This document shows, piece after piece, positions 34,390-50,179 of a DNA stretch of 64,000 nt. The position numbers were made by a program, and so were the translations under genes. This DNA is from a virus (taxonomy: Duplodnaviria > Caudoviricetes): the IMG/VR virus record IMGVR_UViG_3300028591_000087, positions 1-64,000 of that record; one strand, given 5' to 3'. The notes under the pieces are model-generated. The model searched no databases. It was not told where the DNA came from and was given only the letters and a program-made list of their open reading frames with translations. Each line of letters starts with the position of its first letter. The first letter of the stretch is position 1.

Positions 34390-34909
34390 ACGTATGTCTC
34401 CTATTGTTTATATTTTATGGATATTCTCTTATCCTATTGTTATAATATCAAAATTTTTTTAAGAAATCAAGCTTCCGGTCGCAAAAGAAGCTTCCCCCGA
34501 GTATATTTTATCAAAAAATTGATAAAAAGTCAATAAAATGGTCATTTTTCTTGTTTTTTCTTGCAAATTGCTAGCAAAAACACGCAAAAATTGGATAAAA
34601 ATCGTATTTTGTATCCAAAATACTGTATACAGTATCCCGATCGGTGCTAGACCGCATTTTCGGGAAAATTTAGGCGCATATGATGAGTTGCCATGCACTT
34701 TCGAACATATGTTGGGCCATATAGATCGCGGAATTTCGGCCCGAGTCGCCCGCGACCGGGCCGTCGGCATTACGGGAAAATTACAGAACTGTTACAAAAC
34801 TATGAAATCGAAAATTGGATTCTGAATACTGTATACAATCGCGAAAACTGGCCGCTGCGCCCAGCAGCGGCCAGTCCAATAGAAAAACCCGGCTTTCGCC
34901 GGGCTTTGG

Positions 34910-35320
34910 TCATGCCTTTTTGGGGCGGTGGGCGGTGAGGGTTGCGGAGTAGTGAACGCCGTTCAGCACAAAGTCAACCTGCCGTTCCGGGTTGACAACC
35001 TCAACCGCTTCACAGGGCGAGTTATCAGCTCCGAAGCAATTAGCCATTGCCTGTATAAGCAACCGCTTGTCCGGGTTCTCTTTGCGCTCCCGTTTGCGTT
35101 CCTTGCCGTAGGCATCCACCGCACGACCTTTGCGCAAGTCCTTGCTCACCTGCTCCTGCTCTGCGGTCAAGGCGTATTCGGTAGCAGTGCCGTGGTCTAC
35201 TTCCTGATCGTACCAAGCGCAATCAGCCTGTTCCCGGAGTTCGGTGTAGTCGATCCGCTCGTCCGGGTGCTCCTGCTCGTACTTGTCCAGATACTGGTCA
35301 ATGAACTGCTCTTTGGTCAT
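34910..35320 (-). CDS. Hypothetical protein (paralog of 36990-37358)
   Basis: Shared AYGK..KRERK..KR.LI...VVNPER...YS.TLT.HR. Confidence 0.75.
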   Translation of the reverse strand: MTKEQFIDQYLDKYEQEHPDERIDYTELREQADCAWYDQEVDHGTATEYALTAEQEQVSKDLRKGRAVDAYGKERKRERKENPDKRLLIQAMANCFGADNSPCEAVEVVNPERQVDFVLNGVHYSATLTAHRPKKA

Positions 35321-35375
35321 TTGGCTTCCCTCCTTTGATTTCCTGTAATTATTTTATCAAATTTTTTTTATTTTG

Positions 35376-35939
35376 TCAACAGGCAGTTTCTGCTTCCAGA
35401 TAAGTACGTACAACTCGGTTGAACACTATCGTTGACAGATCAACTCCGAAGAACCGATCATTTTTGCAAAAGGCGTCCGGATATTTGCGGATAAAGAACG
35501 CCCGGGCTTGACTTTCCGCACCTTCGCAAGGGATTGTTCCGCAGTCAATCACAGAGCAGATTTCCGTTGACCCAACAGGGATCCCGTGCTTTTGGTAGTA
35601 TTTAACCTCCTCTTGCAATCTCTGCTCCGGTAACCGGGTAGTCGTGCCGACTTTGGAACAAATCAGCTTGCCGTCCGAATCATAGAATTTGAACAGGTAA
35701 ACCAACTGCTTTCCACCACGCAGAACCGCCTTGACCTTTTTGGTTACATGATAGAAAAACTTTTTTGCCTTCTCAAGCAGATCAGCAAACTTTTTGATGT
35801 AACCTTTGATTGTGCTTTCTGCGTACTCAACCCATTTGCGGATTTCCGCAGGGGTAAAACCGCAGGAGTCAAGATAGACAACCTGCAACCGCTTTGTGTC
35901 CGTGTCCTTAAACTTTTGGAAAACATCAACCTTTGTCAT
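35376..35939 (-). CDS. HTH plus GIY-YIG-like domain protein
   Basis: VYLFKF...KVGTTTR.P.QRL motif. Confidence 0.5.
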   Translation of the reverse strand: MTKVDVFQKFKDTDTKRLQVVYLDSCGFTPAEIRKWVEYAESTIKGYIKKFADLLEKAKKFFYHVTKKVKAVLRGGKQLVYLFKFYDSDGKLICSKVGTTTRLPEQRLQEEVKYYQKHGIPVGSTEICSVIDCGTIPCEGAESQARAFFIRKYPDAFCKNDRFFGVDLSTIVFNRVVRTYLEAETAC

Positions 35940-36294
35940 TTTGTCATTCCTCCTTAATTCATTTCATCAAATACAAACCAGTAAATCACCAACATGATTA
36001 TAGCACTAATCAGCAAGATCGTCAACCCCAACTTGAGAAAGAAAATGCCGACCAGTAAACCGAGGATACCGAGGCCACCCAAAAGTACGAACAACCCGAA
36101 CATACAGATCACTCCTTTCGCCTATTATAATACACCTTATGGGAAAATCCGTCAAGCATTTTTTCATGCGAATTTTGGTAAAATTTTTTCCCAGATCCGA
36201 CATCATGCAAAATACCGGTCTTTTTCGGCTGCGTAGCGGCCGAAAAAGACCGGCTCAGCTGTTAGCTGAGCCGGTTGCCCTGGGGCTGTGCCGA

Positions 36295-36648
36295 TTAGGC
36301 ACGGGCGAACTTGTTCACCCGTTTAACCGGCACTTTGGTAGCCCGTCCCTCGTCCACCAGAGCGTTCACCAAAGCGGACACTTTCTGATTAGACAGTACA
36401 GAGAGCCGGGGATCACGCCCCATGATCTCAGTCACAGTGGACGGTTCAGCGGTGAGAACGGACAGCACCACCTCTTTCAGCTCGGCATTTTCGAGCTGTT
36501 TGGCGGTGGGCTTGCGCTCACCGGAGTTCCGCTTGACCTGCTGGTCACGCAGGGCGGACAGCTTAGCGACTACCTCAGTCATAGCCGGATCAGCGGACAG
36601 GGCGGAGATGGCAGTGGACAGAGCGACAACGTAGGTGAGTTTTTCCAT
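36295..36648 (-). CDS. Winged-HTH protein, paralog family member 4
   Basis: KPTAKQLENAELK...SNQKVSALVNALVDEG. Confidence 0.78.
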   Translation of the reverse strand: MEKLTYVVALSTAISALSADPAMTEVVAKLSALRDQQVKRNSGERKPTAKQLENAELKEVVLSVLTAEPSTVTEIMGRDPRLSVLSNQKVSALVNALVDEGRATKVPVKRVNKFARA

Positions 36649-36989
36649 AGGTATTACCTCTTTCTCCGTTTTTAGGAGTATCGGCTCTCCCTTATTACGG
36701 ACTCATTATACTACACTTTCAGCGATCTGTCAAGGAGAAATTTCACTTGCCGGATCGGGCTTGCCAGTGGGGTGGCGGTGGGTGAGCCCCTTCCCTTCCG
36801 CACAAGTATTATCTCATAAACTTGTTTCAAAAGTGTTACGAAAGGATCACATTTAGGACATAACTTCCTGAACAAATTGTTAGTATTTTGGATACAAAAA
36901 TGCGGAGATGCCTGCTGATGCGAAAATCTGGTCTTTCACGACTGCGTAGCGGCCGTGAAAGACCAGCCCAAAAGGAAGCCCCGAAGGGC

Positions 36990-37358
36990 TTAGCCCTTCG
37001 GGGTGCGGTGGCGGGTGAGGGTCACAGAGTAGGAACCGAACCGGATTTCCCGCTCGGGGTTGACCACTTCGGGGGCGAGGTCGGCAAGAGCCTCAACCAA
37101 CCGCCGGATCAGCTCCCGCTTCTCATCATCCGGCTTGCGCTCACGCTTGACCGCTTTTCCGTAAGCGTTGACTGCCCGGGCGCCCTTCCGCATTTCTTTG
37201 GCGATTTCTTCTGCGGTTCCGTCCAGATCATAAGGGGTGGGGCGGTCATGGTCGATTTCATTGTCCCACCAAGCCAGTTCTGCGTTCTCTCGGTCGCACT
37301 CGTGCTTGCTCTGGTATTCAGTCAACCACTTTTCGGTGGGATAGCGGATTTCAGTCAT
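36990..37358 (-). CDS. Hypothetical protein (paralog of 34910-35320)
   Basis: Shares the motif noted for 34910-35320. Confidence 0.75.
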   Translation of the reverse strand: MTEIRYPTEKWLTEYQSKHECDRENAELAWWDNEIDHDRPTPYDLDGTAEEIAKEMRKGARAVNAYGKAVKRERKPDDEKRELIRRLVEALADLAPEVVNPEREIRFGSYSVTLTRHRTPKG

Positions 37359-37406
37359 TGGATCATCTCCTTTCAATGGTATTGTACCACATTAGAAAAG
37401 GGGTTG

Positions 37407-38087
37407 TCAACCCCTTTTCTCATAGAGCACCCGTTCCATCTTGTAATGGGTGCGGTAAGCCTTGAAAATGATTTCCCGTTCAATGGTGGTATCTTCAAAG
37501 GCGGTGTGACTTTCCACAAAATTCATGTTGCCAGTAATGAAGCGGTACAGGATTTCGGCGGTCATGCGGGGGCGGGGCGTGGCGTGCTTTGTCATGTAGC
37601 CGTTTTCTTCGCAAAACTTGCGGTAGGTCGGGCGGTCGGCGAAGGTTTTTGCCATCTTCATTGAATCCCAGATTTCGAAGGAGTCAAGCACACGACACTT
37701 GTGACCGTACAGCCATTCAAAAGTAGTGTTGAGAGCGTCAATGTCGAAGCGGGCATTATGAGCAACAATTGCAATCACGTTTTCCTTGCGGGCGGTGGTG
37801 ATAATGTCCATCAGTACATCACAGAAAGCCTTGATTTCCCGCTTGCCTTCGGCGATGTCCTTAAAGTAGTGGGGGAGCTTTTCGGCGTAATAGCAGGACT
37901 TCATCCGATCCATTTCGCCGAAGAAGATTTCCCGCACGATGTAGGACTTTTCGCAAATCACAGAGCCGGTGGCGGGTTCAATCACAGAGTAACCAACATC
38001 ATAGGTCAGGTTATTGCCGGGCAGGACTTTTTCCAGTTTTTGGATGTTGCAGGTTTCGGTATCCAGTACAAGCAGACGATTTTTCAC
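37407..38087 (-). CDS. DEDDh 3'-5' exonuclease
   Basis: VLDTET, AHNARFD, HTAFEDT. Confidence 0.85.
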   Translation of the reverse strand: MKNRLLVLDTETCNIQKLEKVLPGNNLTYDVGYSVIEPATGSVICEKSYIVREIFFGEMDRMKSCYYAEKLPHYFKDIAEGKREIKAFCDVLMDIITTARKENVIAIVAHNARFDIDALNTTFEWLYGHKCRVLDSFEIWDSMKMAKTFADRPTYRKFCEENGYMTKHATPRPRMTAEILYRFITGNMNFVESHTAFEDTTIEREIIFKAYRTHYKMERVLYEKRG

Positions 38088-38286
38088 AGGTAGCACCTCT
38101 CTCATTTCTTCTGTCCCTTGCGGGATCATGTATAGAATACCACAAAACCGCAGATCTGTACATAGCAGATTTGGGAAAATTTTTGACCAGATCCGACATG
38201 GCGTTTTGAGTGGCAAAAACTGGAATCTGTGCCTATTGCGTAAACTCCGGTTGTTTTCGGCTGCTGTGCGGCCGAAAACAACCGGC

Positions 38287-38505
38287 TCAGGTTTTGAGCC
38301 GGTCGAGATCTTCCTTGTATGGGGCACAGTCCCCAAAAGGACAGGGGAAAGAGCCGTTGTGTGTTACGGCATCAAACCCATGAACTGCGTATTTTGCGAC
38401 GCAGTACCCAGGTCCGTTCATAGTGGCATCTTGCCAAAAGGGGCAAGCGTGGCAATTTTCTTGCCATTGTTGCGGGAAACGGTTAAAGCCTTTCAGAACT
38501 ACCAT
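38287..38505 (-). CDS. Cys-rich small protein
   Basis: CHACPF...YC...CP; GAGG RBS. Confidence 0.55.
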   Translation of the reverse strand: MVVLKGFNRFPQQWQENCHACPFWQDATMNGPGYCVAKYAVHGFDAVTHNGSFPCPFGDCAPYKEDLDRLKT

Positions 38506-38510
38506 TTTTA

Positions 38511-38948
38511 TTACCTCAATCCTTTCAGAATTTCCACAATATACTGTGGATCATAAGCGCCATCACCCCAGGTATTGCGGTTCGGTTCTTCGTCATCGAA
38601 GAGGATACCGCCCCCGGTTGCGGTCAGCTTGTCCGTTCCGTACCGGACAACCCGGATTTCGTCCCACTCTACGGAAGGCAAGTGCTGAGCAAGCCATGCA
38701 CGTTTTGCCATCTCTACGGCGAGGTTGTAAACCTCAGAGCCGTTTTTGGCAGTCCACGAAATGATACCGAGCTTCCAACCATCAGCCTGCAAGCGGTTCA
38801 GCAACCGGGCGAGCAGAGAGAAATTGAGCATCGGTTTCGCCATCGCATAGGGGCGAACGTTTTCGGAGCGGATATCGGCAAGCCATCCCTCTACGGCGTA
38901 AAGGTTAGCGAGCGTCCCGTCCATGTCGAACCAGATAGCCTTAGTCAT
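38511..38948 (-). CDS. HAD-family 5'(3')-nucleotidase-like protein
   Basis: FDMDGT, ILFDD. Confidence 0.8.
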   Translation of the reverse strand: MTKAIWFDMDGTLANLYAVEGWLADIRSENVRPYAMAKPMLNFSLLARLLNRLQADGWKLGIISWTAKNGSEVYNLAVEMAKRAWLAQHLPSVEWDEIRVVRYGTDKLTATGGGILFDDEEPNRNTWGDGAYDPQYIVEILKGLR

Positions 38949-39111
38949 CAGTGAATCCCTCCTTCTGTACCATTATAATACACCTAACAGGATTTTTTGT
39001 CAAGAGGTTTTTAGCCTTATTTTCAAAAGTTTTTTTCCTGTGATCCGGTGCTAACGCAAACTCGGTTCATTTGCGGCCATGAGGACCGCAAATGAACCGC
39101 CAAAAACCGGG

Positions 39112-39354
39112 TCAGTCGACCCGGTTCATGGAATCGTAAATTGCTCTCCCGCACTCGGGGCACAGCAATCTGTAATCCATTTCGCCATGTCCCACAAGAG
39201 TATAAGCAAAATCATTGAGAGTTGCTTTGAATACACAACCGCAACCGCCGAATACTTTTCCAGTACTGCGGGAATACCCGCATTCGTAGGTGTGCGTTTC
39301 TTGTTTTGCTTTCTCTTGTTTATAAGCCTCGCCGTGACAGATTACCTTAATCAT
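39112..39354 (-). CDS. Zn-ribbon protein
   Basis: CGCVF...VGHG..D...CPECG. Confidence 0.62.
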   Translation of the reverse strand: MIKVICHGEAYKQEKAKQETHTYECGYSRSTGKVFGGCGCVFKATLNDFAYTLVGHGEMDYRLLCPECGRAIYDSMNRVD

Positions 39355-39369
39355 TTTTCCTTCCTCCTT

Positions 39370-39813
39370 TTAATCCGGGATCTTATCCCAGGTTTCTTTC
39401 AGAATCCGCATGATTTTGCGATCCAGTTCACAGAACTCAACCAAATGGTCAGTAACTTCCACAATCGCCCAATTAGTTGCAATCCGTTCATTGTAGAGAT
39501 TGAAATACTCTTCCGGGTCAGTGATTTCATTTCTTTTGTCTGTGTCATCTTTAATCCACATTTCTGTTTCAAGGTGTCCAAGCTCGTGCATGAAGGAGAG
39601 CAGGAACACAGAGAAGATTTCACAGACTGGACGCTGTTTGACAATGAACTGTTTGAACTCTTCTCCGCCCTTTTCGGAAATGATTGGAGAATAGCAAATC
39701 TTGTTCTTATCAAGCAGAGCCATAAAGTCACCGGACACTTCAACAGTATATTCCGGATCATACTTTTGTGCAACCTCGTTCAGCAGGGCAGTCAGTTCAG
39801 CAAATTCCTCCAT
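39370..39813 (-). CDS. HExxH zincin-like protein
   Basis: FMHELGH...E..AT.WA; paralog of 43551-43994. Confidence 0.62.
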   Translation of the reverse strand: MEEFAELTALLNEVAQKYDPEYTVEVSGDFMALLDKNKICYSPIISEKGGEEFKQFIVKQRPVCEIFSVFLLSFMHELGHLETEMWIKDDTDKRNEITDPEEYFNLYNERIATNWAIVEVTDHLVEFCELDRKIMRILKETWDKIPD

Positions 39814-40192
39814 AATCAGTCCTCCTTACACTCAGTATTATACTCCTGCTTGACTCGTCTGTCAAGTTTTTTGCGCTCGCTCCGCAGGATTTTTTTCTTG
39901 AGCTTGCGGTTTGCTCTTGAATCTTGATTGATGATTCCACGACAACCGGGGTTCAAATCCCAAGCAGACAGTTCAGACCCTTTCTTGTATGTACAACTCA
40001 TTTCCATACCCCTCCTTTGTGTAATTATAATATCATAATTTTAGGATTTTGTCAACAGGATCACACATGTGACTTTTGGTTGCGAAAATTACCAGATCCT
40101 ACAAAGATCCTAAACACCGTTCGCTTGCGGCCAGAATGACCGCAAGCGAACGGCTCAGCTGTTTAGCTGAGCCGTTCGGGGTTGGGGTGGGA

Positions 40193-40597
40193 TCACACAG
40201 TGATCTCACCCGGCAGGGCTTCCACCCCATGATCCGCAAGGGCGAAGTAGGTCACCCGCTTGTCCTGCCACTTGGTCACCTGCTCGGTGTTCACAAGCTG
40301 GGTCAGCAGGGCGGAACACTTCTGACCGGAGATGCCGAGCTTTTCGGCGATCTCACCGCACTTCAGATCCGGAGTGTCGGCGAGAATTCGCAGGATCTCC
40401 GCTTTGGTGTTGCCGTTCGCCACCTGCTTGGCGGTCGGCTTGCCGGACTTGGAAGCGTTCCGCTTCTCAAGCGACTGCCCCAGGGCAATCAGCTTTTCAG
40501 CAACCGCAACCTTTTCGGCTTCGGTCAGGGTCTCGCCGTTGATAGCACGCAGGGCGAAGTTGATGGCGTTCACGTAAGTCAGTTTTTCCATGGTCAT
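40193..40597 (-). CDS. Winged-HTH protein, paralog family member 5
   Basis: KPTAKQVAN..GEIAEKLGISGQKCSALL. Confidence 0.78.
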   Translation of the reverse strand: MTMEKLTYVNAINFALRAINGETLTEAEKVAVAEKLIALGQSLEKRNASKSGKPTAKQVANGNTKAEILRILADTPDLKCGEIAEKLGISGQKCSALLTQLVNTEQVTKWQDKRVTYFALADHGVEALPGEITV

Positions 40598-40968
40598 TAC
40601 CTCTTTCTCTGTTTGTGGGGTTTATCAGCTCCCCTTTGATGTATTAAGTGTATCATACCTTGGGCTATTTGTCAAGGGGTTTTGAAATCTTTTTGAAAAA
40701 TTTCTCGGGCTCTTGACTGGTTCTTGTGGAGCAGGAGTGTGCCCTCTCTCCCCTTGACATCGCCCGCCCCTCCACTGAGGGGCTGTCCTTTTGACACCAT
40801 TATAATACCAAAAACGGGAAAAGAAGTCAATTACAAAATTTTGAACAATTTGTTACGAAAATGTTAAATCGTCTCTCCGATCCAAAATTCTGGTCTTTTA
40901 CGGTCACGCAGCGGCCGTAAAAGACCAGCCGAGTTCTTCGGCTGGTCTGTGCGGGGTGTCCCCCGGGC

Positions 40969-41316
40969 TTACGCCCGGGAGAACTTGTTGACCCGCTTCA
41001 CCGGGGTCTTGACTGCCCTGCCCTCATCCACAAGGGCATTGACCAGGGCACTCACCTTCTGATTGGACAGGACGGACAGCTCCGGGTCCCGACCCATCAG
41101 TTCGGTGACCGTGGCGGGTTCAGAGGTCAGGACTTCCAGAACCCGAGCCTTCAAGCCCTCATTAGCCACCTGCTTGGCGGTGGGCTTGCGGTCAGCGGAG
41201 TTCCGCTTCTCGGTCTGCGCCTTGAGAGCGGTCAGCTTTTCGGCAACATCAGCGGGCAGGTCGGTCACGTTTTCCAGAACATAGGACAGAGCAGAAACAT
41301 AAGTCATCTTGGTCAT
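40969..41316 (-). CDS. Winged-HTH protein, paralog family member 6 (close to 36295-36648)
   Basis: MGRDP.LSVLSNQKVSALVNALVDEGRA. Confidence 0.8.
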   Translation of the reverse strand: MTKMTYVSALSYVLENVTDLPADVAEKLTALKAQTEKRNSADRKPTAKQVANEGLKARVLEVLTSEPATVTELMGRDPELSVLSNQKVSALVNALVDEGRAVKTPVKRVNKFSRA

Positions 41317-41831
41317 GGTATCAACCCTTTCTCCGTTTGTGAGGTTCGGCTCCTCTTGATTACGTGGTTATTATACCACAGGTTGTGGGGCTTGTCAACC
41401 CCTTTTTTCGGATCCCGGGCGATTAGCCTTGGCCTTCGGCTTTTGGTGCGCTACTCCATCGCCCGGGCGCCTTCCTCAGGGGAGCGCTCCCCTTTCGGTG
41501 AGATTATAATACCATAATTATGTTACAGATCAATAACAGAAGTATCACATTTAGGACATAACTTTATGAACTTTTTGTAACAATTTTGGATCCAAAAACC
41601 TGTAGACCTACCCCTAACGCAAATCCCGATCTTTCACGACTGCATAGCGGCCGTGAAAGATCGGCTCAGAAAAAGGCTCGCCTAATGGCGAGCCAAAGCC
41701 TTGTCAATCTGATTGCAAATCATCGGACCGAACAGATAGGTCAGCGCTGGCACCGCCCCGCACCAAATCCAGATTTCCGCAATTTGCAGTGACCATTTAT
41801 ACAGACCATACAGCGCAGGAAACATCATTTT

Positions 41832-42173
41832 TTATCCCTCCATTTCTTTCAGTTGATCCCGGGCATCGTCCAGTTCCTTCACCAGTTTGTCGATCCGGTT
41901 TTTCAGATTCTTGATTTTTTCTTTCTTGCGCTTGACCAGTTCCGGGTTTACCCGTTCTTTGACCATGTCGCAAATGGTGTCATACTCAGCTTCGTTGTAG
42001 TCGGTTTCCATTTCTGAGATCATACAGGCGGACAGGACGTATTCATCGAAGCTTTCAATGATGTCGCTGTCGTTCGGCAGTTCTTCCAGATCCGTACAGT
42101 AGGAATCAAGAAAGTCCTCAATCTGCCGATCATTTACTGCATAGGTGTTCAGATACGTGACATTCAGTGCCAT
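41832..42173 (-). CDS. Hypothetical protein
   Basis: RBS; coiled-coil C-terminus. Confidence 0.6.
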   Translation of the reverse strand: MALNVTYLNTYAVNDRQIEDFLDSYCTDLEELPNDSDIIESFDEYVLSACMISEMETDYNEAEYDTICDMVKERVNPELVKRKKEKIKNLKNRIDKLVKELDDARDQLKEMEG

Positions 42174-42607
42174 AGGGTTTACCTTCCTTTCTTTTGATAA
42201 CACAGGGTTGCCCTGTTTCAGCGAGGACAGGGTTTGATTGATTTACCTCGCCCCTGTGTGATTATCTTACCATACTTTCGACCGCTTGTCAAGCCTTATG
42301 CGAAAGATTTTGCAAAGCGGTTCAGACGCCGGCGGTCAATCCGATCCATGCGCTTGCGGAGCTTGCGGGAGTTGGTGTGCCGGGTCAGGTTGGTGGAAGC
42401 GGGCTTGCAAGCGCCCTTCGTGGTGGTGCGAGTCATTCGGATCAGCTCCTTTCTCTCTGTGACTATACTATACCAGATACAGGATCATTTGTCAAGCCCT
42501 TTTATGCCCTATTTTCGCTGTTTTTCTGCTGAAATCTCTTAAAATCTCTAAATTCCGAGCGTTTGCGGCCACGCAGCGACCGCAAACGCTCGGCTCAGAG
42601 GTTTGGC

Positions 42608-43135
42608 TCACCGCCAAACCTCATCCTCGCCGGCATCCCAGGCGTAGTCAATCACGCATACCTTGCCATTGCGGTATCCCACATTGGAACTGTGCAGGTC
42701 ATTGACATTGTACCAGAGCCATTTCCGTTCCTCGTCGGTGCAGTAGTTATCCCAACTCCGGCTCTCATCACCAACGTGGTCTACCCGGGGCATGATAGAG
42801 AACTTGATGCCGTTATATTCACCCTGAGTCACTTTCGCCAACAGGTGAGCCATACCTTCGGCTTCGGCTCTTGCATACACACGGGCTTCAGATTCATTGT
42901 TACCCGCCTGACCGTCCGACCATGCGCCTTCGGGCATCATGTCGAACTTGATAACGTAGTCGGCACGGATCACGGCGAAGCGGGACACGCCATGGGCAGT
43001 GCGGAGTTTCAAAATGTGATAGGTGTTATAGTAGTCAACAGCATACTGGAAGTCGTCAAGAGTCACGCAACCATAGAACAGGGTTGCAAGCCGATGGGCG
43101 AACCGGAGGGCGCGAGCTTCGTAAGTGGTGGTCAT
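42608..43135 (-). CDS. Protein-kinase-like fold protein
   Basis: YVIKF...E...DLHSSNVG...VIDY. Confidence 0.65.
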   Translation of the reverse strand: MTTTYEARALRFAHRLATLFYGCVTLDDFQYAVDYYNTYHILKLRTAHGVSRFAVIRADYVIKFDMMPEGAWSDGQAGNNESEARVYARAEAEGMAHLLAKVTQGEYNGIKFSIMPRVDHVGDESRSWDNYCTDEERKWLWYNVNDLHSSNVGYRNGKVCVIDYAWDAGEDEVWR

Positions 43136-43550
43136 TGGATCAACTCCTCTCTGTGACTATACTATACCACATACGGGCGTAGCTGTCAAGTGGTTTTTAC
43201 GCTAATTTTCAAAACTTTTTTTCTGGATCCCTGTGGTAGCGTGAAAACGGGTCATTCGCGGTCACTGGTGACCGCGAATGACCCGCCAAATGAAAAAGCG
43301 GGGCATCAGCCCCGCATCAGATTGTACAGTTCCCGCTCGACAAGCCAGGTTTCCCGGTCGAGTTCCTCGGTGCGAACTCGTGAGTCAACCCGCCCTTCAG
43401 AGTCCCAAGTTCCGTGCGGGTTCATGTCGGTGCGGTAGTAGTGGGTTGTCCGGGTCTCGATTTCGGTGACGGTGGTGAAGATGATTTCAGGCATTGCGTT
43501 TCGCTCCTCTCTTGATCTTGTCATTATTATACCAGACCCGGAGGGGATTG

Positions 43551-43994
43551 TCAATCCCTTCCGAAAAAATCCCTTTCAAACGCTTTTGCTTGTTTCCGGT
43601 GGTCGGGATCCATCAGCCAACAGATTGCCCAACAGGTAGCGAGCATTTCATAGGGAATCAGCTGATAGGCGTACTGGTCAGAACCGGCTTTGGCGACTTG
43701 TTCGGCGTAGACAGTGCCGTTAAAGTTGTCCCGGGTGGCGAAGTGTCCGCACTCATGCAGGATGCTGATAGTCACATCAGCGAAGCCCCGGGCGAGAGGA
43801 CAACGGGCAACGAAGTCAGCGCGGAAGATGTGGTCAGTGTCCTTTTTGGCGAACAGATCAGCAGGCACGGACAGGCGCATAGTGTCCTCTTCAGACTCAA
43901 CAGCCCAATCATCACGCTTACGCGGGATCACGGGGCGAACACCTGTCACCAGTTCCACGAAGTTACGGATTGCAGTCAGCTGAGTCATCATCAA
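43551..43994 (-). CDS. HExxH zincin-like protein
   Basis: ILHECGH...E.LAT.WA. Confidence 0.62.
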   Translation of the reverse strand: MMMTQLTAIRNFVELVTGVRPVIPRKRDDWAVESEEDTMRLSVPADLFAKKDTDHIFRADFVARCPLARGFADVTISILHECGHFATRDNFNGTVYAEQVAKAGSDQYAYQLIPYEMLATCWAICWLMDPDHRKQAKAFERDFFGRD

Positions 43995-44039
43995 GCACCT
44001 TCCTTTCTACAAGTATTATACCAAATGACGGATCAGCCG

Positions 44040-44450
44040 TCAAGTATTTTTTGAGTAAAAGCACCATTTTTCAGAAAAGATGTATTCAAGCTGAAAGCCC
44101 AGTTTTTCAAGAGTGTGGCGCATTGCCCCATTATCAACCCACGGAGTGCAACCGACTTTTTCCCCGGGAACTTGCGCCGAAACATACTTGAGCATTTCTT
44201 GGGCGTATCCTTTGCCCTGATTCCTTTTGTTGGGAACGCAAAGCCGTTTCATTGCCCAATAATTGTTGGAATCGTCCCAAACAAGGGAAAGCATTGCAAC
44301 AATTTTACCCTTGTCATTTTCCATGATGTATTGTCTACCAAAAATTACATCCCAACGCACGTGCTCTGTAGTGATGTAACTAATGTGTTTATTTTGGATG
44401 CAACGCACGATCCGAGCGAAGTCAAAAGCATCAGCCTTACGAATTTCCAT
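44040..44450 (-). CDS. GNAT acetyltransferase
   Basis: LCV...QGKGYA...N.AM...EKLGF. Confidence 0.8.
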   Translation of the reverse strand: MEIRKADAFDFARIVRCIQNKHISYITTEHVRWDVIFGRQYIMENDKGKIVAMLSLVWDDSNNYWAMKRLCVPNKRNQGKGYAQEMLKYVSAQVPGEKVGCTPWVDNGAMRHTLEKLGFQLEYIFSEKWCFYSKNT

Positions 44451-44608
44451 GGTTCCCACCTCCACGGATAGTGTATCACAAACGGGATCAGCTGTCAAGC
44501 ACTTTTTTTATGCAATTCGCATGAATAATTATGCAATCCCTCAGCTGATCTAAACTCTGGGCGCTGACTGCTGCAAAGCGGCCGTCAGCGCCCAGCCAAA
44601 ATGGTCGG

Positions 44609-44845
44609 TTAAAAACACCGACCATTTATAACGCACTGATTTGCAAAGGAGCTATGCCTATGCTGAGCGCAAACTTTGATGGCTTCCCAAGTAGGCTGTA
44701 AGCGTACAACATCAACCAAGGTATCGCCATCCTTTACGCCCCATGCCACAGCTTTACCAAGGGCACGATTGCCCCATAGGTATTCGTAATGCCGGTACAG
44801 CTCAAAGCCGTCATCAGCTTCCCAAGTGATCCGATAGAGTTTCAT
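44609..44845 (-). CDS. Hypothetical protein
   Basis: Own promoter and AGGAGG RBS. Confidence 0.6.
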   Translation of the reverse strand: MKLYRITWEADDGFELYRHYEYLWGNRALGKAVAWGVKDGDTLVDVVRLQPTWEAIKVCAQHRHSSFANQCVINGRCF

Positions 44846-44917
44846 CAGTCATTTCCTCCTAATCTCTTGATCTGTAAGTATTATATCAAATCATTGTCTG
44901 ATTGTCAACAACTTTTT

Positions 44918-45226
44918 TCAGCAGTAGGCAAGCGCCATATCCCGCCACCGCAGAACGCTGATCTGATTGCAAGCGCGGCCAACTTCCATCGCTTCGCGTT
45001 TGGTGTTGACGCGGTGGCTCTTGTCGATGTAGTAGATCCCGCCCGCGTACCAGATCCCGCAGTTGCCATCATAAGCCTTGACAGCTTCAATGGCTTCCCG
45101 CGCCGTATGGCACTCAACACCTTCAGTTGCGACTTGCCATCCGGTCTTATAGGTGATTTTGCGTCCAGCTTTCAGGGTGAGGCCATCGTTTTCGCTCAGC
45201 TTCGTAATGCTCCGGATGTTGATCAT
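44918..45226 (-). CDS. Hypothetical protein
   Basis: Own promoter and AGGAGG RBS. Confidence 0.7.
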   Translation of the reverse strand: MINIRSITKLSENDGLTLKAGRKITYKTGWQVATEGVECHTAREAIEAVKAYDGNCGIWYAGGIYYIDKSHRVNTKREAMEVGRACNQISVLRWRDMALAYC

Positions 45227-45961
45227 GGTAGTTACCTCCTTGCTTTCCTTGACTATACTATACCAGATCCGGACATAATTGTCAAGGGTTTTTGAAAATT
45301 ATTTTTCAAGCCTTGATTTCGTTTACTGCCTTGCTAAAGCTGATAAACAGGTCGGTTTCCCAAAAGACTTTGAACCCCATCAGCACATATTGACGCTTCA
45401 TGCACTCAAACATTTCAGCGGAGAACACGCAGTGCTGACCATTGCTGATGGTTTCATAACCGCCGTTGACCTTGAAGAAGCTGTAGCTTTTGATTTCGTA
45501 CTTCATGGGGTTGACCTCCTGTCTCTTACTGTAGTAAGTATAGCACATTAGGGACAGCTTGTCAACCACTTTGAGCACATTTTTCTAAAACTTTTTTTTC
45601 CTGATCCCACACACAAGCCAAACACTGGCCTTTGACGACTGCGCAGCGGCCGTCAAAGGCCAGCCAAAAAGAAACCCTCCCGCCGAGAGGAGGAGGAAAA
45701 GCGGGAGGGGGCTACGTCAATTTTTGGGGGGATCAGCCCTCAACCCGGAGGGCGATCCCGCCGATCTCCCGAGCCTGCGCCCGGGCTTCATCTTCGGTGT
45801 ACCAAGCACCATAGAACCACAGCTCTCCTTCATAGGGGTTGGCGGTAATCCAAGCGTAATCAGTAACGTTGGCGGGCAGGTTGTTGACGGTGGCGATCAG
45901 TTTCATTCTCAGTACCTCCTGTTTCTTACTGTAGTCATTATACCAGATTGGGGAGGGGTTG

Positions 45962-46402
45962 TCAACCCCTTTCCGCAATCTTTTTCAGAATTTCCACAAT
46001 TTTTTCCGGCTCGTAAGCACCGGCTCCCCAGTTGATCCGGTTTGGTTCTTCATCGTCAAAGAGGATCCCGCCACCAGTTGCAACCCGCTTATCAGTGCCG
46101 TAGGCAACAACCTTGATTTCGTTCCAAGTGACCGACCGGAAGTGTTCTCCGAGCCAAGCCTTTTTGGCTTCGGCAACCCGCTCGTTGTATTCGGCAGTTC
46201 CGGTTTTAGCCGTCCAAGAGATGATTCCGATCTCATGCCCGCAAGCCTGAACCTTATTCAGGTACCGAGCAATCAAGGACAGGTTTCCGATCCCTTTGGC
46301 TTCGGTGTAGGGGCGAGTGTCCATAGCCCGCAGGGCAGGAAGCCAATCAGCTACTCCGTAGAGGTCGGCGATTGTGCCGTCCATGTCAAACCAGATCTTC
46401 AT
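45962..46402 (-). CDS. HAD-family nucleotidase-like protein (paralog of 38511-38948)
   Basis: FDMDGT, ATGGGILFDDEEPNR. Confidence 0.8.
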   Translation of the reverse strand: MKIWFDMDGTIADLYGVADWLPALRAMDTRPYTEAKGIGNLSLIARYLNKVQACGHEIGIISWTAKTGTAEYNERVAEAKKAWLGEHFRSVTWNEIKVVAYGTDKRVATGGGILFDDEEPNRINWGAGAYEPEKIVEILKKIAERG

Positions 46403-47102
46403 CAGTGGGTCACCTTCCTTTCCGTGTCTATAATATACCATAGGTCAACCCATTTTGCAAGGGGTTGTGAGCAGGTTTAAGAATTTTGTAACAATTGTTA
46501 ACAAAGTTGTAACATTTGGGATCCGATAGATTTTTACAATTTGGCGGCCTCTCAAGATGTAAAATCTGGTCAATGGCTGATAGCGCAAACTCGGTTCGTG
46601 CGCTGGCAAGGCGCCCGCGCACGAACCGCCAAAAAGAAAAGGGCGGGATCACCGGGCAAACCCGTAGTGATCCCGCACCCACCAGGTCTCTCCGGTGGCG
46701 ATCATCATCGCCAAGCAGTATAGCTCGGCGTCCTCATAAGAGTCGAAGCAGATGCTTCCGGTGATGAAGCCCCGATCTACTGTGTACCAAACGCTGAAGT
46801 TCATTGCTGTTACCTCCCTCTCTTGATGGCTTTATTATACCAGATCCCGGATCATTTGTCAACACTTTTTTTCACAACATTTTTCAACAAGTTGCTTTCT
46901 AAAGTGTCGTTAAACATCATAAACTTGACCATTTTCAGATGGTCTGTCATCGGGCAATTCGGATATTTTTTCATCATAGTATCAAAATACATTTTGATTT
47001 CTTCCTCTGTATACATCATCGTTCGTTCCTCCCTTTCTCCATTTCGATGATTATATATTAGCACATCTTTTCCGGATTGTCAACACTTTTTGCGGAACTG
47101 GA

Positions 47103-47234
47103 TCAGTGTTTGCTGATCCAGTTTTCCGCACCCGTGCGGGACTTGAAGGTTTTCACCAACACTTCCCGCCACTCCGTGCAGGCATACACGCCATAGCGTC
47201 CGCCCGCCAGTTCACGTACCTTGTAGCTCGTCAT
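47103..47234 (-). CDS. 43-aa protein, duplicate copy 1
   Basis: MTSYKVRELAGGRYGVYACTEWREVLVKTFKSRTGAENWISKH. Confidence 0.65.
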   Translation of the reverse strand: MTSYKVRELAGGRYGVYACTEWREVLVKTFKSRTGAENWISKH

Positions 47235-47318
47235 TGTTTCTTACCTCCCTCTCTTGATGGCTTAATTATACCAGATGTACCCGCATCCGTCAAGCACTTT
47301 TTTGTCGATTTTAGAATT

Positions 47319-47458
47319 TTGTAACAATTTTAACATTTTTGTAACAATTGATTTTTTTAGTAAAATTTACAGTTACATCAGCTTAGTTACATGGTTACAT
47401 CAGTTTAGTTACATGCGGGATCCGGGATGTAACTGTTACATGGCGGCCATGTAACTGA
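47319..47458. repeat. GTTACA/TGTAAC box cluster
   Basis: About 9 boxes; similar clusters at 46486-46515, 48293-48425 and 49853-49981. Confidence 0.75.
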
Positions 47459-47551
47459 AAATTTTACACGACTGCCCACTTACATAAACTCGGTGCGCTG
47501 TCGGCCGCAATGACCGACAGCGCACCGCCGATCAAAAGGAAAAGACCCGGA

Positions 47552-47683
47552 TCAGTGCTTGCTGACCCAGGTCTCAGCCCCGGTGCGGGTCTTAAAGGTC
47601 TTGATGAGGACCTCGCGCCACTCCGTGCACGCATACACTCCGAACCGTCCACCCGCGATCTCCCGAACCTTGTAGCTAGCCAT
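47552..47683 (-). CDS. 43-aa protein, duplicate copy 2
   Basis: MASYKVREIAGGRFGVYACTEWREVLIKTFKTRTGAETWVSKH. Confidence 0.65.
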   Translation of the reverse strand: MASYKVREIAGGRFGVYACTEWREVLIKTFKTRTGAETWVSKH

Positions 47684-47790
47684 CTTAGTTACCTCCTGTT
47701 TCTTACTGTAGTCATTATACCAGATGCCCTTTTGTTTGTCAACCCTTTTTTTGAAAACTTTTTTAATTTTTTTTCGCCGTTCGGTGCGGA

Positions 47791-48192
47791 TCAGATCCGC
47801 ACCGCTTCGCCCTTCGTGGTCAAGGTGATGGCTTCGTAACCTGCCTTGATCCATTGCCGGGTGTTGGCTGTATCATCATCAATCAGGATTCCGGCTTCGC
47901 GGATGTTGTCAACCTTGCGACCCTTGTTGATAATGATGATGTGCGCTTCGTCCATTTCCGGAACAAACTTTGCGAGCCATTCAACCTTGCCCTGCGCGCC
48001 ATCGGCGTTGGCGGCCTTCGTGAGGATGTAGCAGGTGTGACCGTCACGGATCAGCTTGCGGAGAGTGTTGACGTTGTCCACGAATGGCTCAAGGTTCGCC
48101 ATGGCTTCGCGCTTGAGAGCGACAGCGTGGTCATTCGCGTATGCCTTGTGGAAGTTCGTGAGCACTCCGTCCATGTCCCAGTAGTAAGTCAT
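47791..48192 (-). CDS. HAD-family 5'(3')-nucleotidase-like protein
   Basis: WDMDGV, K..WL, ILIDD. Confidence 0.78.
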   Translation of the reverse strand: MTYYWDMDGVLTNFHKAYANDHAVALKREAMANLEPFVDNVNTLRKLIRDGHTCYILTKAANADGAQGKVEWLAKFVPEMDEAHIIIINKGRKVDNIREAGILIDDDTANTRQWIKAGYEAITLTTKGEAVRI

Positions 48193-48794
48193 CGTGGCGT
48201 CCTCCTCTCTTGATCTGATAAGAGTATACCACAAAAAGGGTCACATTGCAAGCCCTTTTGCTAAAAAAATAATATTTTTTTTCTATTAAGTTTTGTTAAC
48301 AAAGCTGTAACAATTGAGCAGTTGTGCTAATTGCACAGTTACATCACAGCTGTAGTATAGTTACATGTGGGATCAGCTGTGTAACTGTTTAGCTGTGGTC
48401 ATGTAACTGTAAAAAGTGTGTAACTACTCATTAGCGCGAATACGGCTCTCGCACTGCCAGAATGGCCGTGCGCGAGCCGCCAATAAAAAAAGGGCTTTCG
48501 CCCTTGGTGTCACAGGTAGATCTCTTTACCTTCGCACCGGATGATGTAGCTCTCTTCGCAGGTGGCGCGAGCTTCGAACTCTTCCACCCAAGAGGTCAGC
48601 TCCTCGATGCTCGTGGTGGTGAATTCCAGTTCGGTAGGCTTCATTCCTTCGTAGTTGGTGTAGATCTCGTAAGTCTTCATTGGTTTGTCCTCCTCTTAGT
48701 TAGTGTCCCTCTTGACACTGTTAGTATAACACATTGGCCCCTTAATGTCAACACTTTTTGCAAATTTTTTTATATTTTTTTCGCTGGGCTGGGA

Positions 48795-49151
48795 TCACCA
48801 TTCCCAGCCCATCCAGTCAGCTACACCCGCCGGCGTCAGTTCTCCCATCAAGCGCACATCCATGACCTCATCTTCTTCTTCTCTCTCCCCGCTGAGGTCA
48901 AGCATTGTCAGCCGGGCAAGGTCACCAATGTGCCAGTACTCGCCGTTTCCATTATCTTCGAACCATGCCCACATCTCGCCATCAGCATCAACAGCTGTCA
49001 CTTCCCAACAGCCGGGGAAGGCAATCCGCATCTCAGTGACTACTGCGTCAATCTCATAGGTTTTACTCTCAGCTGATGCAGGGATGGCGCAGGCGCAAGC
49101 GATGATGATGGCGCAGGTGATGGCGGTGGCGATAACAATCAGTTTCTTCAT
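48795..49151 (-). CDS. Secreted or membrane-anchored small protein
   Basis: N-terminal signal peptide. Confidence 0.65.
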   Translation of the reverse strand: MKKLIVIATAITCAIIIACACAIPASAESKTYEIDAVVTEMRIAFPGCWEVTAVDADGEMWAWFEDNGNGEYWHIGDLARLTMLDLSGEREEEDEVMDVRLMGELTPAGVADWMGWEW

Positions 49152-50179
49152 GGTGGTTGTCCCCTTTCTTTTGATGGCTTATTATAGCACACTTTTTCTG
49201 ATCCTGTCAAGCTCTTTTCTGAGCTGATGAGGATTAATCATCCTCATCAGCTTCGACTGCCTTGATGCCCCAGTCAGCGACGTGATAGACCATCCTGCCA
49301 TACTCTTTGGCTTTCTCAGCCCGTTCGTATTTGGTGTTGATCCGATCAGCGTAAGCCCGGGCTTTCTCTTCAGTGGTGAAGTAGTGGGGCTCAGTAGCGT
49401 CATTTTCGAAGCGGTTCATCACGTTCACGATCCAGATCTTAGTCATTGTTTTCTTCCTCCTCTTATTTGGTGTCCCTCTTGACACTGTTAGTATACTACA
49501 TTAGGCTGTTATTGTCAAGCCTTTTTGAAACTTTTTTCAAAGTTTTTTTAAGGCTTAGGCATCACGATACAGTTCATCGCCCAGCCAGATTTCATAGCCT
49601 TCTTCAGCATCGGCATCGTACCAGCCAGCGCCGTCGGTTTCGGCTTCGATGTAAGCAACGGCTTCAGCTTCGGTGGCGAAGATGTCAACCAGTTCGTAAG
49701 ACCCGCAGGTGGTGAAGTAGACTTCGTAGCAATCCATTGTTTTCGTCCTCCTCAGTGTTTCCTGTCCCTTTCGACATTGTTAGTATAGCACAGGTGGCCG
49801 CTAATGTCAACACTTTTTTGCAGAAAAAAAATATTTTTTTTCTGTTAAATGTTTGTAACATTTTTGTAACAATTGAGCAAGTAGCACAAATCAACAGTTA
49901 CATGGATCCAGTTACATGGTTACATGGGGCTGGTTACATGCGGGATGGGTCATGTAACCGTGTAACCGCGGTCATGTAACCGAAATTTTGCTGATTGCAA
50001 AAAATTACAAAAATACCGGGCGTGCCGTTCCTGCACGCCCGGGCGACGTTCTCTCGAACCCCAGACTACCCTGTGTATTTTTAGTCAACCTAAAAGCACC
50101 CGGGGATCTATTTCGGGAGAAAATTTTTTTAAATCTGTTATTTCCTTTTTGCCTGGACCTTTCCCACTCTAAATCTTTT

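What the first reader, a model, noticed from the sequence alone, without database searches (positions are those of the whole stretch)
36215..48479. Cassette-like array delimited by 14 constant-length, sequence-variable hairpins
Seen: about every 0.7-1.3 kb there is a 37-39-nt inverted repeat of approximate form AAAnn-C(Y)GG-N8/9-CGRY-loop-GRCCG-N'-CC(R)G. The N arms differ between copies but stay complementary. Each lies just downstream of a minus-strand unit made of a TTGACA/TATAAT promoter, RBS, 1-3 small genes and a terminator. Units carry recurrent paralogs (wHTH, HAD, HExxH, 43-aa peptide), and two are near-duplicates (36.2-36.9 and 40.9-41.6 kb). The region looks more GC-rich than the structural genes. 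Inference: structure-defined DNA sites for cassette gain or shuffling, conceptually like integron attC or REP elements, or cruciform signals in first-injected DNA. No recombinase is visible in the window.
Basis: partly seen in the sequence, partly recalled or inferred. Interest (0 to 1): 0.76.

Follow-up and report, generated by a model that had tools for sequence, protein, structure and literature searches.

The report
Double-hairpin terminators bounding phage early-gene cassettes
The 14 hairpins are real and most likely are RNA stop signals that close each small early-gene unit of a large rumen phage; together with the strong promoters beside them they are also the seams where related phages lose, gain and reorder genes, a layout already known from T4-type phages.

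Summary
Observation confirmed. Fourteen 37-39-nt hairpins (17-18-bp stem) lie at the stated places. They are the only members of their family in the 193-kb phage record apart from one short copy at 34836-34879. Eleven of 18 stem pairs show compensatory changes.

All sit on the gene (minus) strand at the 3' end of an early transcription unit. Each follows a smaller hairpin, and TTT follows at +3 to +5 with a conserved box. A host-type promoter comes 60-280 nt further on.

Related rumen phages carry the same element only in their early arrays, but with 9-15-bp stems. This genome added about 7 bp at the tip of all 14 copies.

One clean 899-nt deletion in two DNA runs has both ends at hairpin feet. 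Most other homology breaks lie at promoters or leaders. No integrase, Y1/RAYT transposase or serine recombinase was found in the genome.

Best reading: the second stem of a double terminator inside repeated terminator-promoter modules, which recombine by homology like T4 PeSLs. The attC/REP reading is not supported. The weak U-tract leaves an RNA processing or stability role open. This scan has noted PeSL-like arrays in several other phages.

The parts
34000..50500 (-). Early-gene array: about 35 small minus-strand genes, mostly ORFans, each behind its own near-consensus host-type promoter
36215..36253 (-). big hairpin h01 (18-bp stem, loop UAC)
   Evidence: (68.4 bits)
36928..36966 (-). big hairpin h02
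   Evidence: 66.6 bits
38247..38285 (-). big hairpin h03
   Evidence: 66.6 bits
39063..39099 (-). big hairpin h04
   Evidence: (62.7 bits)
40117..40153 (-). big hairpin h05
   Evidence: 63.9 bits
40890..40928 (-). big hairpin h06
   Evidence: 66.8 bits
41626..41664 (-). big hairpin h07
   Evidence: 67.8 bits
42555..42593 (-). big hairpin h08
   Evidence: 64.5 bits
43248..43285 (-). big hairpin h09 (perfect 18-bp stem)
   Evidence: (65 bits)
44557..44595 (-). big hairpin h10
   Evidence: 66.2 bits
45625..45663 (-). big hairpin h11 (identical copy in metagenome contig L050)
   Evidence: (66.5 bits)
46592..46628 (-). big hairpin h12; its 3' foot is one end of the 899-nt deletion
   Evidence: (58.5 bits)
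47491..47527 (-). big hairpin h13; its 3' foot is the other end of the 899-nt deletion
   Evidence: (56.4 bits)
48443..48479 (-). big hairpin h14
   Evidence: (54.1 bits)
34836..34879 (-). short-type member of the same family (stem as in the relatives), at the downstream edge of the array
   Evidence: (24.8 bits)
50004..50047 (-). ordinary terminator at the upstream edge of the array; weak model match; conserved in L009
   Evidence: (21 bits)
36249..36275 (-). small hairpin hp1 before h01. Its 3' arm overlaps the foot of h01, and its U-tract is the 5' arm of h01
36979..37003 (-). small terminator hairpin hp1 before h02
41675..41694 (-). small terminator hairpin hp1 before h07
43298..43315 (-). 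small terminator hairpin hp1 before h09
45675..45694 (-). small terminator hairpin hp1 before h11
47542..47575 (-). small terminator hairpin hp1 before h13
48490..48505 (-). small terminator hairpin hp1 before h14
37391..37423 (-). hairpin whose loop is the -35 hexamer of the next promoter (the classic PeSL layout), inside a unit
   Evidence: z -5.2
45949..45975 (-). second, weaker hairpin with the -35 hexamer in its loop
   Evidence: z -2.25
46587..47485 (-). one whole unit (three promoters, three small genes, hp1 and h12) that is absent in related strains
   Evidence: table 5 and record 31

Best explanation
The 14 hairpins are RNA elements on the sense strand. Each is the second, larger stem of a double terminator that closes a unit of early genes driven by host-type promoters.

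Each unit ends in the same order: stop codon, small hairpin hp1 (often with a U-tract), GG, big hairpin hp2, nnUUU plus a conserved box. Then comes a spacer with GGATC and an A-rich stretch, and then the next TTGACA-17-TGnTATAAT promoter.

Inferred steps:
- hp1 stops most transcription.
- hp2 stops what reads through, or caps its 3' end. In this way units behind very strong promoters are insulated from one another.
- The roughly 100-nt terminator-spacer-promoter module is repeated many times in one orientation. Ordinary homologous or microhomology recombination, or replication slippage, between copies then deletes, inserts and reorders genes without a dedicated recombinase. This is what was described for the PeSLs of T4-type phages.

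The stem sequences drift by compensatory changes because only pairing is selected. The shared 7-bp tip extension in this genome points to exchange among the copies, or to a common length constraint.

Shown here: the anatomy, the covariation, the strand-specific flanks, the restriction of the family to early arrays, and the rearrangement seams. Not shown: termination itself.
For: 1. Position and orientation. 14 of 14 hairpins lie 1-69 nt after a stop codon. All are on the gene strand. The next start codon follows after 106-309 nt behind a promoter.
2. Strand-specific flanks. Alignment A1 has invariant T47 and T48 three to four nt after the stem, and invariant G5 and C6 before it. The model scores 54-68 bits on the minus strand. 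On the plus strand only the stem part (model positions 6-44) matches, at 19-44 bits.
3. Selection for pairing. 94.7% of cells are paired, 11 of 18 pairs have compensatory changes, and 0 of 500 shuffles reach the score. The hp1+hp2 regions fold with z from -2.6 to -8.8.
4. G.U pairs in the sense RNA against A.C (which would be G.U in the antisense RNA). Three flank positions: 67 against 4. Inside the stems: 22 against 11.
5. The same hp1-UUU-GGGC-hp2-UUU design recurs on the gene strand in relatives. There are 14 hits in L009, 13 in L013 and 8 in L017. In whole records it occurs only inside the early array: G001 has 12 of 12 hits in 134.7-145.8 kb of 149 kb. Many of these copies have 4-5 U directly after an 11-13-bp GC-rich stem.
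6. Seams. A joint 46586->47486 appears in runs X5 and X6, with sides of 62 and 204 nt and 9 shared letters at the hairpin foot. L013 has one extra unit bounded by hairpins relative to L009. Gene order is shuffled gene by gene in the upstream half of the array. 7 of 15 joints and 13 of 24 loose ends shown lie at promoters, leaders or start codons.
7. No integrase, Y1 transposase or resolvase is in the 193-kb record.
8. Two hairpins carry a -35 hexamer in their loop, the published PeSL layout (PMC2839356 section 13).
Against: - The U-tract after hp2 is poor in this genome: 3-4 U starting 2 nt after the stem. The simple terminator scan accepts only 2 of 14 hp2, against 7 of 14 hp1.
- An 18-bp stem is longer than usual for an intrinsic terminator.
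- Inside the stems the G.U against A.C excess is not significant. This genome has 9 against 7, and all hairpins together have 22 against 11, p 0.08. Six copies share a C.A mismatch that would be G.U on the other strand.
- An RNA-run contig (X2 record 3, 41312-42258) runs across h07, so termination there is not complete, or the contig joins overlapping transcripts or DNA.
- RNA contigs that end at hairpins (46592, 40895, 34848) cannot be counted as support. DNA contigs end at hairpins too (34846/34848, 45662, 39106, 42571/42543).
- No 3'-end data exist.
Confidence: 0.6

Rival explanations
1. hp2 is mainly an RNA processing or stability element, not a terminator. On this view it is a perfect 17-18-bp double-stranded RNA stem cut by host RNase III, as at the sites in early mRNAs of phages T7 and SP82. 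Alternatively it is a 3' cap that blocks exonucleases on transcripts that read through hp1. A factor that measures the stem length would explain the constant geometry and the shared tip extension.
For: - hp1 already looks like the canonical terminator in 7 of 14 units, while hp2 passes the terminator scan in only 2 of 14.
- Stem length is tightly fixed at 16-19 bp in this genome and 9-15 bp in relatives, leaving out one 5-bp mis-fit in L009.
- The ancestral loop motif YGGNC is kept in sequence although it is now paired.
- RNA-run contigs include hp2 (X2 records 2 and 6).
- RNase III sites in SP82 early mRNA are on record. I saw this only as citations 19 and 20 in PMC4838370.
Against: - The 11-13-bp stems of the relatives are short for RNase III (from established knowledge, recalled).
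- hp2 always sits at unit ends before a promoter, never between cistrons of one unit.
- The phage encodes no RNase III of its own.
- There are no cleavage data.
- This reading is not exclusive of the terminator reading.
Confidence: 0.2
2. The hairpins are DNA-level, structure-defined recombination sites (like integron attC or REP). They would fold in single-stranded DNA and be cut and joined by a dedicated enzyme that moves cassettes.
For: - The sequences are variable but the structure is conserved, and the hairpins sit at unit ends.
- The best-supported deletion has both ends at hairpin feet.
- One unit-sized difference between L009 and L013 is bounded by hairpins.
- Inside the stems there is no clear strand asymmetry in this genome.
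Against: - No Phage_integrase, Y1_Tnp or Resolvase match in the whole record, with positive controls ringing.
- No bulged bases in 14 of 14 stems, and no RYYYAAC/GTTRRRY or GTAG motifs in the flanks.
- Every cassette has its own promoter.
- The deletion joint lies in 9 letters shared by both copies, as expected for homology or slippage.
- Most breaks are at promoters or leaders and none of the 24 loose ends shown is at a hairpin.
- Units differ in gene content without any hairpin change.
Confidence: 0.06
3. The palindromes act as double-stranded or cruciform DNA signals, for example operators for the three MarR-like winged-helix proteins, or signals for injection, replication or packaging.
For: - They are 37-39-bp palindromes with conserved outer (CYGG/CCRG) and inner (CGGYC) parts.
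- Three wHTH paralogs are encoded in the same array.
Against: - The variable middle positions covary perfectly. Intrastrand pairing explains this; recognition of two half-sites by a dimer does not.
- The flanks are asymmetric and fixed relative to gene direction.
- A different repeat (GTTACATG clusters) is the better operator candidate.
Confidence: 0.06

Closest known systems
PeSLs (promoter-early stem-loops) of T4-type phages (Arbiol et al. 2010, PMC2839356; Comeau et al. 2014, PMC4122927)
   Same: - Repeated composite terminator plus strong host-type early promoter modules.
- The modules are concentrated in a region of small ORFan genes.
- Indels and replacements between relatives are flanked by the modules.
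- No dedicated recombinase.
- Two hairpins here carry the -35 box in their loop, one of the published layouts.
   Different: - A different phage lineage (a rumen phage that reads TAG as Gln) with Firmicute-type extended -10 promoters.
- The main hairpin lies 60-110 nt or more upstream of the promoter instead of inside it.
- It comes as a pair (hp1 + hp2).
- It has a fixed, unusually long geometry and a conserved 3' box.
- Promoters outnumber hairpins: at least 23 against 14-15.
- Mini-circles were not tested.
Tandem (fail-safe) intrinsic terminators, such as rrnB T1T2 of E. coli (recalled, not checked in a paper)
   Same: Two GC-rich stem-loops in series at the end of a strongly transcribed unit, both co-oriented with the genes.
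   Different: The second stem has a weak, offset U-tract and a conserved family architecture across 14 units and across related genomes. Termination is not shown.
RNase III processing hairpins in early mRNAs of phages T7 and SP82 (Panganiban and Whiteley 1983; Mitra and Bechhofer 1994; seen only as citations in PMC4838370)
   Same: Paralogous stem-loops of about two helical turns in early transcripts made by the host polymerase.
   Different: Here they lie at unit ends next to a terminator, not between cistrons. The stems are perfect, without internal loops. Relatives have stems of only 11-13 bp.
Integron attC sites
   Same: Sequence-variable, structure-conserved palindromes at the 3' end of gene cassettes.
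   Different: No integrase, no core sites, no extrahelical bases, constant length, and cassettes with their own promoters.
REP/BIME elements with RAYT transposases
   Same: Palindromes of about 35-40 nt after genes that can also stabilise or end transcripts.
   Different: No RAYT gene, no conserved GTAG end, variable sequence, and confinement to one 14-kb array.

Membership tests
PeSL-type terminator-promoter cassettes | Repeated motif holding a strong sigma70-type early promoter with an AT-rich upstream part | tested here: met
   The scan found 55 promoter-like sites against 15.6 expected. 23 sites match 11-12 of 12 positions, all on the minus strand. A-rich spacers precede the -35 box.
PeSL-type terminator-promoter cassettes | A stable stem-loop in or next to the promoter that can act as terminator or attenuator | tested here: inconclusive
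   Stem-loops are present. Two have the -35 box in the loop. The 14 big hairpins lie 60 nt or more upstream of the promoter. Terminator activity was not measured.
PeSL-type terminator-promoter cassettes | Concentration in a hyperplastic region rich in ORFans | tested here: met
   All family members lie in 34.8-48.5 kb. Most of the 37 proteins scanned (34 in the array, 3 just upstream of it) have no Pfam or PHROG match. Gene order is shuffled among relatives.
PeSL-type terminator-promoter cassettes | Indels and replacements between relatives bounded by the motifs | tested here: met
   Hairpin-to-hairpin deletion in two runs; promoter-to-promoter joints; extra unit in L013 against L009.
PeSL-type terminator-promoter cassettes | Excised mini-circles | not testable with these tools
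   The joints shown are all of the 'skips' kind. Only contigs, not raw reads, were available.
Intrinsic (Rho-independent) terminator | GC-rich stem-loop directly followed by a U-tract, co-oriented with the upstream gene | tested here: inconclusive
   Stem and orientation are met in 14 of 14. TT is invariant, but the run is only 3-4 U and starts 2 nt after the stem. The scan accepts 2 of 14 hp2 and 7 of 14 hp1. Relatives often have 4-5 U directly after the stem.
Intrinsic (Rho-independent) terminator | RNA 3' ends map to the U-tract | not testable with these tools
   Only contigs of an RNA run were available. Their ends at hairpins are matched by DNA contig ends.
Integron attC | Adjacent IntI-type tyrosine recombinase | tested here: not met
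   PF00589 gave 0 matches in the whole record; the control rang in 14 of 14 genomes.
Integron attC | Core sites RYYYAAC/GTTRRRY and extrahelical bases in the folded strand | tested here: not met
   The flanks are TTGG(G)C and nnTTTnCG. The stems are continuous, without bulges. The motif definitions are recalled.
Integron attC | Promoterless cassettes read from a common promoter | tested here: not met
   Each gene or unit has its own near-consensus promoter.
REP/RAYT | Y1 HUH (RAYT) transposase gene | tested here: not met
   PF01797 gave 0 matches; the control rang in 6 genomes.
REP/RAYT | Conserved sequence, dispersed over the genome in many copies | tested here: not met
   The sequence is variable (mean column identity 68%). 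All copies lie in one 14-kb array.
RNase III processing site | Double-stranded RNA stem of about 20 bp in a transcript | tested here: inconclusive
   Stems are 16-19 bp in this genome but 9-15 bp in relatives.
RNase III processing site | RNase III-dependent cleavage | not testable with these tools
   No data. The phage has no RNase III gene.

The most novel reading that the evidence does not exclude
The big hairpins are length-gauged RNA (or single-stranded DNA) elements read by a trans-acting factor, and they spread among units independently of the genes. All 14 central copies in this genome carry the same roughly 7-bp tip extension, which turns the ancestral loop motif YGGNC into stem. None of about 35 copies in the nearest relatives does. 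Yet the lower stems differ from copy to copy. That pattern needs either repeated copy-and-paste or gene conversion of terminator modules (true mobile regulatory cassettes), or co-evolution with a factor that measures stem length, such as host RNase III or a phage double-stranded-RNA binder.
Probability: 0.15. Interest if true: 0.6.

Novelty: new variant of a known kind. Interest (0 to 1): 0.35.

Why it matters
It extends the PeSL idea. Repeated terminator-promoter modules insulate early genes and also serve as seams for gene shuffling. PeSLs were described in T4-type phages of Gram-negative hosts; here the same principle appears in a large uncultured rumen phage lineage with Firmicute-type promoters.

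It gives a concrete, countable family (covariance model R1) for annotating transcription-unit ends in these phages.

The double-hairpin design and the genome-wide change of stem length are a small, testable puzzle about how terminators evolve in concert.

It does not reveal a new recombination system.

Tried and rejected
- Megablast of the array against deposited phage genomes: no match.
- Exact IUPAC pattern of the long hairpin in viral contigs: 0 hits.
- The same pattern in metagenome contigs: 67 stretches. 66 are chance matches in high-GC DNA, with at most 4 of 7 complementary arm positions. One is true (L050), the same phage at 99.6% identity and colinear, so it gives no new information on rearrangement.
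- Loci found with a wHTH protein (L009-L011) seemed to lack the hairpins under a strict stem scan. The covariance model later found short-stem copies there.
- Rfam at permissive E-values over 33-51 kb: nothing reaches a gathering score.
- RNA-run contigs ending at hairpins (46592, 40895, 34848): rejected as evidence for RNA 3' ends, because DNA contigs also end at hairpins.
- G.U against A.C asymmetry inside the stems: not significant.
- PF00940 (single-subunit RNA polymerase): uninformative, since the control rang nowhere.
- Two of four hairpins proposed to hold a -35 box in the loop are no better than shuffles.
- Look-alike stretches in other windows of this scan: none.

Full report
**The observation**

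The window is the first 64 kb of a 193,102-bp virus record. Each is 37-39 nt, with a 16-18-bp stem and a 3-5-nt loop.

- A scan of the whole record for stems of at least 15 bp found 32 hairpins. Fourteen are this family, and all of them lie in 36.2-48.5 kb.
- I aligned the 14 copies on the minus strand with short flanks (A1). For the 18-pair helix, 94.7% of cells pair. Eleven of 18 pairs change on both sides. None of 500 shuffles reaches the covariation score. Sliding the partner by 1-3 columns drops pairing to 33-40%.
- A covariance model built from A1 (R1) finds the 14 copies at 54-68 bits. It also finds one short relative at 34836-34879. It finds nothing outside 34.8-48.5 kb in the record.

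**The context**

All genes from about 34 to 52 kb run on the minus strand.

- The stretch 35-50 kb holds 23 of the 40 near-consensus minus-strand TTGACA-N17-TATAAT promoters in the genome, most with the TG of an extended -10. In the tool's scan there are 55 promoter-like sites against 15.6 expected.
- Of the 37 proteins I scanned (34 in the array, 3 just upstream of it), most have no Pfam or PHROG family. The named ones in the array are three HAD/NT5C deoxyribonucleotidases, a MarR-like winged-helix protein with two paralogs, a GNAT acetyltransferase and a DEDD-type exonuclease.
- GC is 0.47-0.52 in the array, against 0.34-0.43 in the structural genes downstream.
- Earlier notes of this scan say that the phage reads TAG as glutamine in late genes. 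In my listing, TAG read-through is frequent in the 52-64-kb genes.

This is a classic early, or host-takeover, region read by the host polymerase.

**Anatomy of a unit end**

Read on the minus strand, each of the 14 units ends in the same order:

1. The stop codon.
2. A small hairpin, hp1, present in 14 of 14 units by my reading. The simple scan of them terminators.
3. A U-rich run. In six units the 5' arm of the big hairpin supplies this run, because hp1 and hp2 overlap by a few bases.
4. GG, then the big hairpin hp2.
5. Two variable bases, then TTT. T47 and T48 are invariant, followed by a loosely conserved nCGYTA box.
6. In at least six units, a spacer with GGATC and an A-rich stretch.
7. 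The next promoter.

The hp1+hp2 regions fold as two adjacent stems, with z-scores from -2.6 to -8.8.

Inside units, genes are separated only by promoters. Two of these promoters sit in the loop of a hairpin: 37391-37423 (z -5.2) and 45949-45975 (z -2.25). Two further candidates are no better than shuffles.

**RNA or DNA?**

The flanks are strand-specific. The full model matches only the minus strand. On the plus strand only the stem part matches.

I counted non-Watson-Crick pairs with a scoring that favours neither strand, over 58 hairpins of this genome and its relatives.

| Positions counted | G.U in sense RNA | A.C (G.U in antisense RNA) |
|---|---|---|
| Inside stems, all hairpins | 22 | 11 (p 0.08) |
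| Inside stems, this genome | 9 | 7 |
| Inside stems, relatives | 13 | 4 |
| Three flank positions | 67 | 4 |

The flank excess arises because a G-run before the stem faces the U-run after it. Six copies share a C.A mismatch at one stem position.

Fixed orientation, the invariant TT, the place after stop codons and the flank asymmetry all favour a sense-strand RNA element. The stems alone do not decide the question.

**Relatives**

Loci around homologs of the exonuclease (L012-L025) and of a wHTH protein (L009-L011) were searched with R1.

- Hits, all on the gene strand: L009/L012 (one contig) 14, L013 13, L017 8, L010 5, and L024, L011 and L019 2 each.
- These hits span only 43-45 nt. Their stems are 9-15 bp, mostly 11-13, with loops rich in YGGNC, and many have 4-5 T directly after the stem.
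- The same hp1-UUU-GGGC-hp2 design is visible in them.

In whole records the hits are confined to the early array.

| Record | Size or completeness | R1 hits |
|---|---|---|
| G001 | 149 kb | 12 of 12 in 134.7-145.8 kb |
| G002 | 41-kb fragment | 14 |
| G005 | 21-kb fragment | 7 |
| G004 | complete | 1 |
| G003 | 95% complete | 0 |

So the family is shared by a clade of rumen phages. What is special here is that all 14 central copies carry about 7 extra base pairs at the tip (CGGYCRC-loop-GYRRCCG). This turns the ancestral loop motif into stem. The copy at the array edge (34836-34879) keeps the short form.

Strains at 90-99% identity in goat and bovine runs align through the long hairpins (records 24, 26 and 28).

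**Rearrangements**

Gene-family maps show a conserved downstream half of the array. In this genome, L009 and L013 it reads: wHTH | exonuclease + F04 | wHTH | F07 F14 F04, where each bar is a hairpin. The upstream half is shuffled gene by gene. Genes that share one unit in L009 lie in different units here.

DNA blocks shared with L009 and L013 mostly cover one gene with its ribosome site or promoter.

L013 has one extra unit relative to L009: spacer, two promoters, a wHTH gene, hp1 and hp2. Both of its ends lie at hairpins.

Contigs of one RNA run and three DNA runs from sheep, goat and bovine gut were laid on 34-51 kb.

- The best-supported joint skips 46587-47485. It appears in two DNA runs of two studies, with sides of 62 and 204 nt. 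It removes exactly one unit, from the 3' foot of h13 to the 3' foot of h12, within 9 letters that both feet share.
- Of the 15 joints shown (26 more were not shown), 7 have both ends in a promoter, leader or start codon. One joins hairpin to hairpin. One has a single end at a hairpin. Four are inside genes and two are mixed. All joints except the hairpin one and a 48-nt in-gene indel come from a single run, and all except the hairpin one have sides under 60 nt.
- Of the 24 loose ends shown (349 more were not shown), 13 lie at promoters, leaders or start codons, 7 lie in genes, 4 lie elsewhere between genes, and none lies at a hairpin.

So the seams are the repeated regulatory modules as a whole, and promoters are used more often than hairpins.

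**Enzymes**

Six-frame searches of the whole record found no Phage_integrase, Y1_Tnp (RAYT/IS200 type), Resolvase, Ribonuclease_3 or Sigma70_r2 domain. Positive controls rang in each case. The search for a T7-type polymerase was uninformative.

**RNA evidence**

An RNA run holds 0.71 of the sampled words. Its contigs cover hp1 and hp2 of two units and stop at 46592 (the last base of h12) and at 40895 (5 nt before the end of h06). DNA contigs also stop at hairpins, so I do not count this as support. One RNA-run contig crosses h07. At best this shows incomplete termination.

**Reading**

The most economical account is that hp2 is the second stem of a double terminator that insulates units behind very strong promoters. 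The repeated terminator-spacer-promoter modules then recombine by homology or slippage.

This matches the published PeSL model. That model describes composite sigma70-type promoter plus stem-loop motifs, concentrated in ORFan-rich hyperplastic regions, which flank indels between related phages and are proposed to recombine over about 100 bp of conservation. I read the abstract and sections 13 and 16 of PMC2839356, and the abstract only of PMC4122927.

The weak point is the poor U-tract of hp2 in this genome: only 2 of 14 pass the scan. This keeps a processing or stability role alive. RNase III sites in SP82 early mRNA are the nearest precedent, and I saw them only as citations.

The attC/REP reading fails each defining feature that I could test.

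**Novelty and limits**

This is a new variant of a known kind. It shows PeSL-like behaviour in another phage lineage, with a double hairpin, a fixed long geometry and a concerted tip extension.

My paper searches were aimed at known analogues, not at this phage group, so I make no claim about what is or is not in print for it. This scan has noted PeSL-like cassette arrays in several other phages. I recalled the PeSL lead before seeing those notes.

Termination, processing and circle formation remain untested. The classification of joints and loose ends rests on the subset that one search printed.

Noticed in passing
window 49890-49990, 48300-48440, 47340-47480, 46480-46520: There are clusters of GTTACATG / TGTAAC repeats in four spacers, between a unit end and the next promoter. 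13 of the 16 GTTACATG copies in the genome lie in the array. They look like iterons or operators, perhaps for the wHTH paralogs or a replication origin.
   Followed up: partly
window 36740-36860, 40690-40800, 41400-41505: An extra promoter stands upstream of each of the three wHTH genes. It is followed by a GC-rich non-coding stretch of about 100 nt and then by the gene's own promoter. These may be small RNAs or leaders. Rfam has no match.
   Followed up: partly
window 34000-50500: GATC occurs 115 times against 63 expected from base composition, often as GGATC in spacers and as TGATCC at stop codons. This may be a methylation or restriction-related signal.
   Followed up: partly
window 33589-33627; L009 16996-17028: A different 39-nt hairpin has the same 18+3+18 geometry (loop TAC on the plus strand) and a conserved, poorly paired tip. 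A homolog sits at a similar place in L009/L012 and L013. Rfam gives only a weak sub-threshold match.
   Followed up: no
window 47103-47234 and 47552-47683: Two paralogous 43-aa peptides (about 80% identical by eye) each have their own consensus promoter, in adjacent units. One of them lies in the unit that related strains lack.
   Followed up: no
window 36928-36966 vs 41626-41664; 36215-36253 vs 40890-40928: These are the hairpins that bound the two paralogous wHTH units. The first pair differs at two stem pairs, and both are compensated on the other arm (read). The second pair has two such compensated lower-stem pairs plus differences in the tip part that are not fully compensated. It is a neat small case of compensatory evolution after duplication.
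   Followed up: partly
window 41682-41684: The 48-aa early gene at 41682-41828 ends in TAG, although the late genes of this phage are said to read TAG as glutamine. Early genes may rely on TAG still acting as a stop.
   Followed up: no
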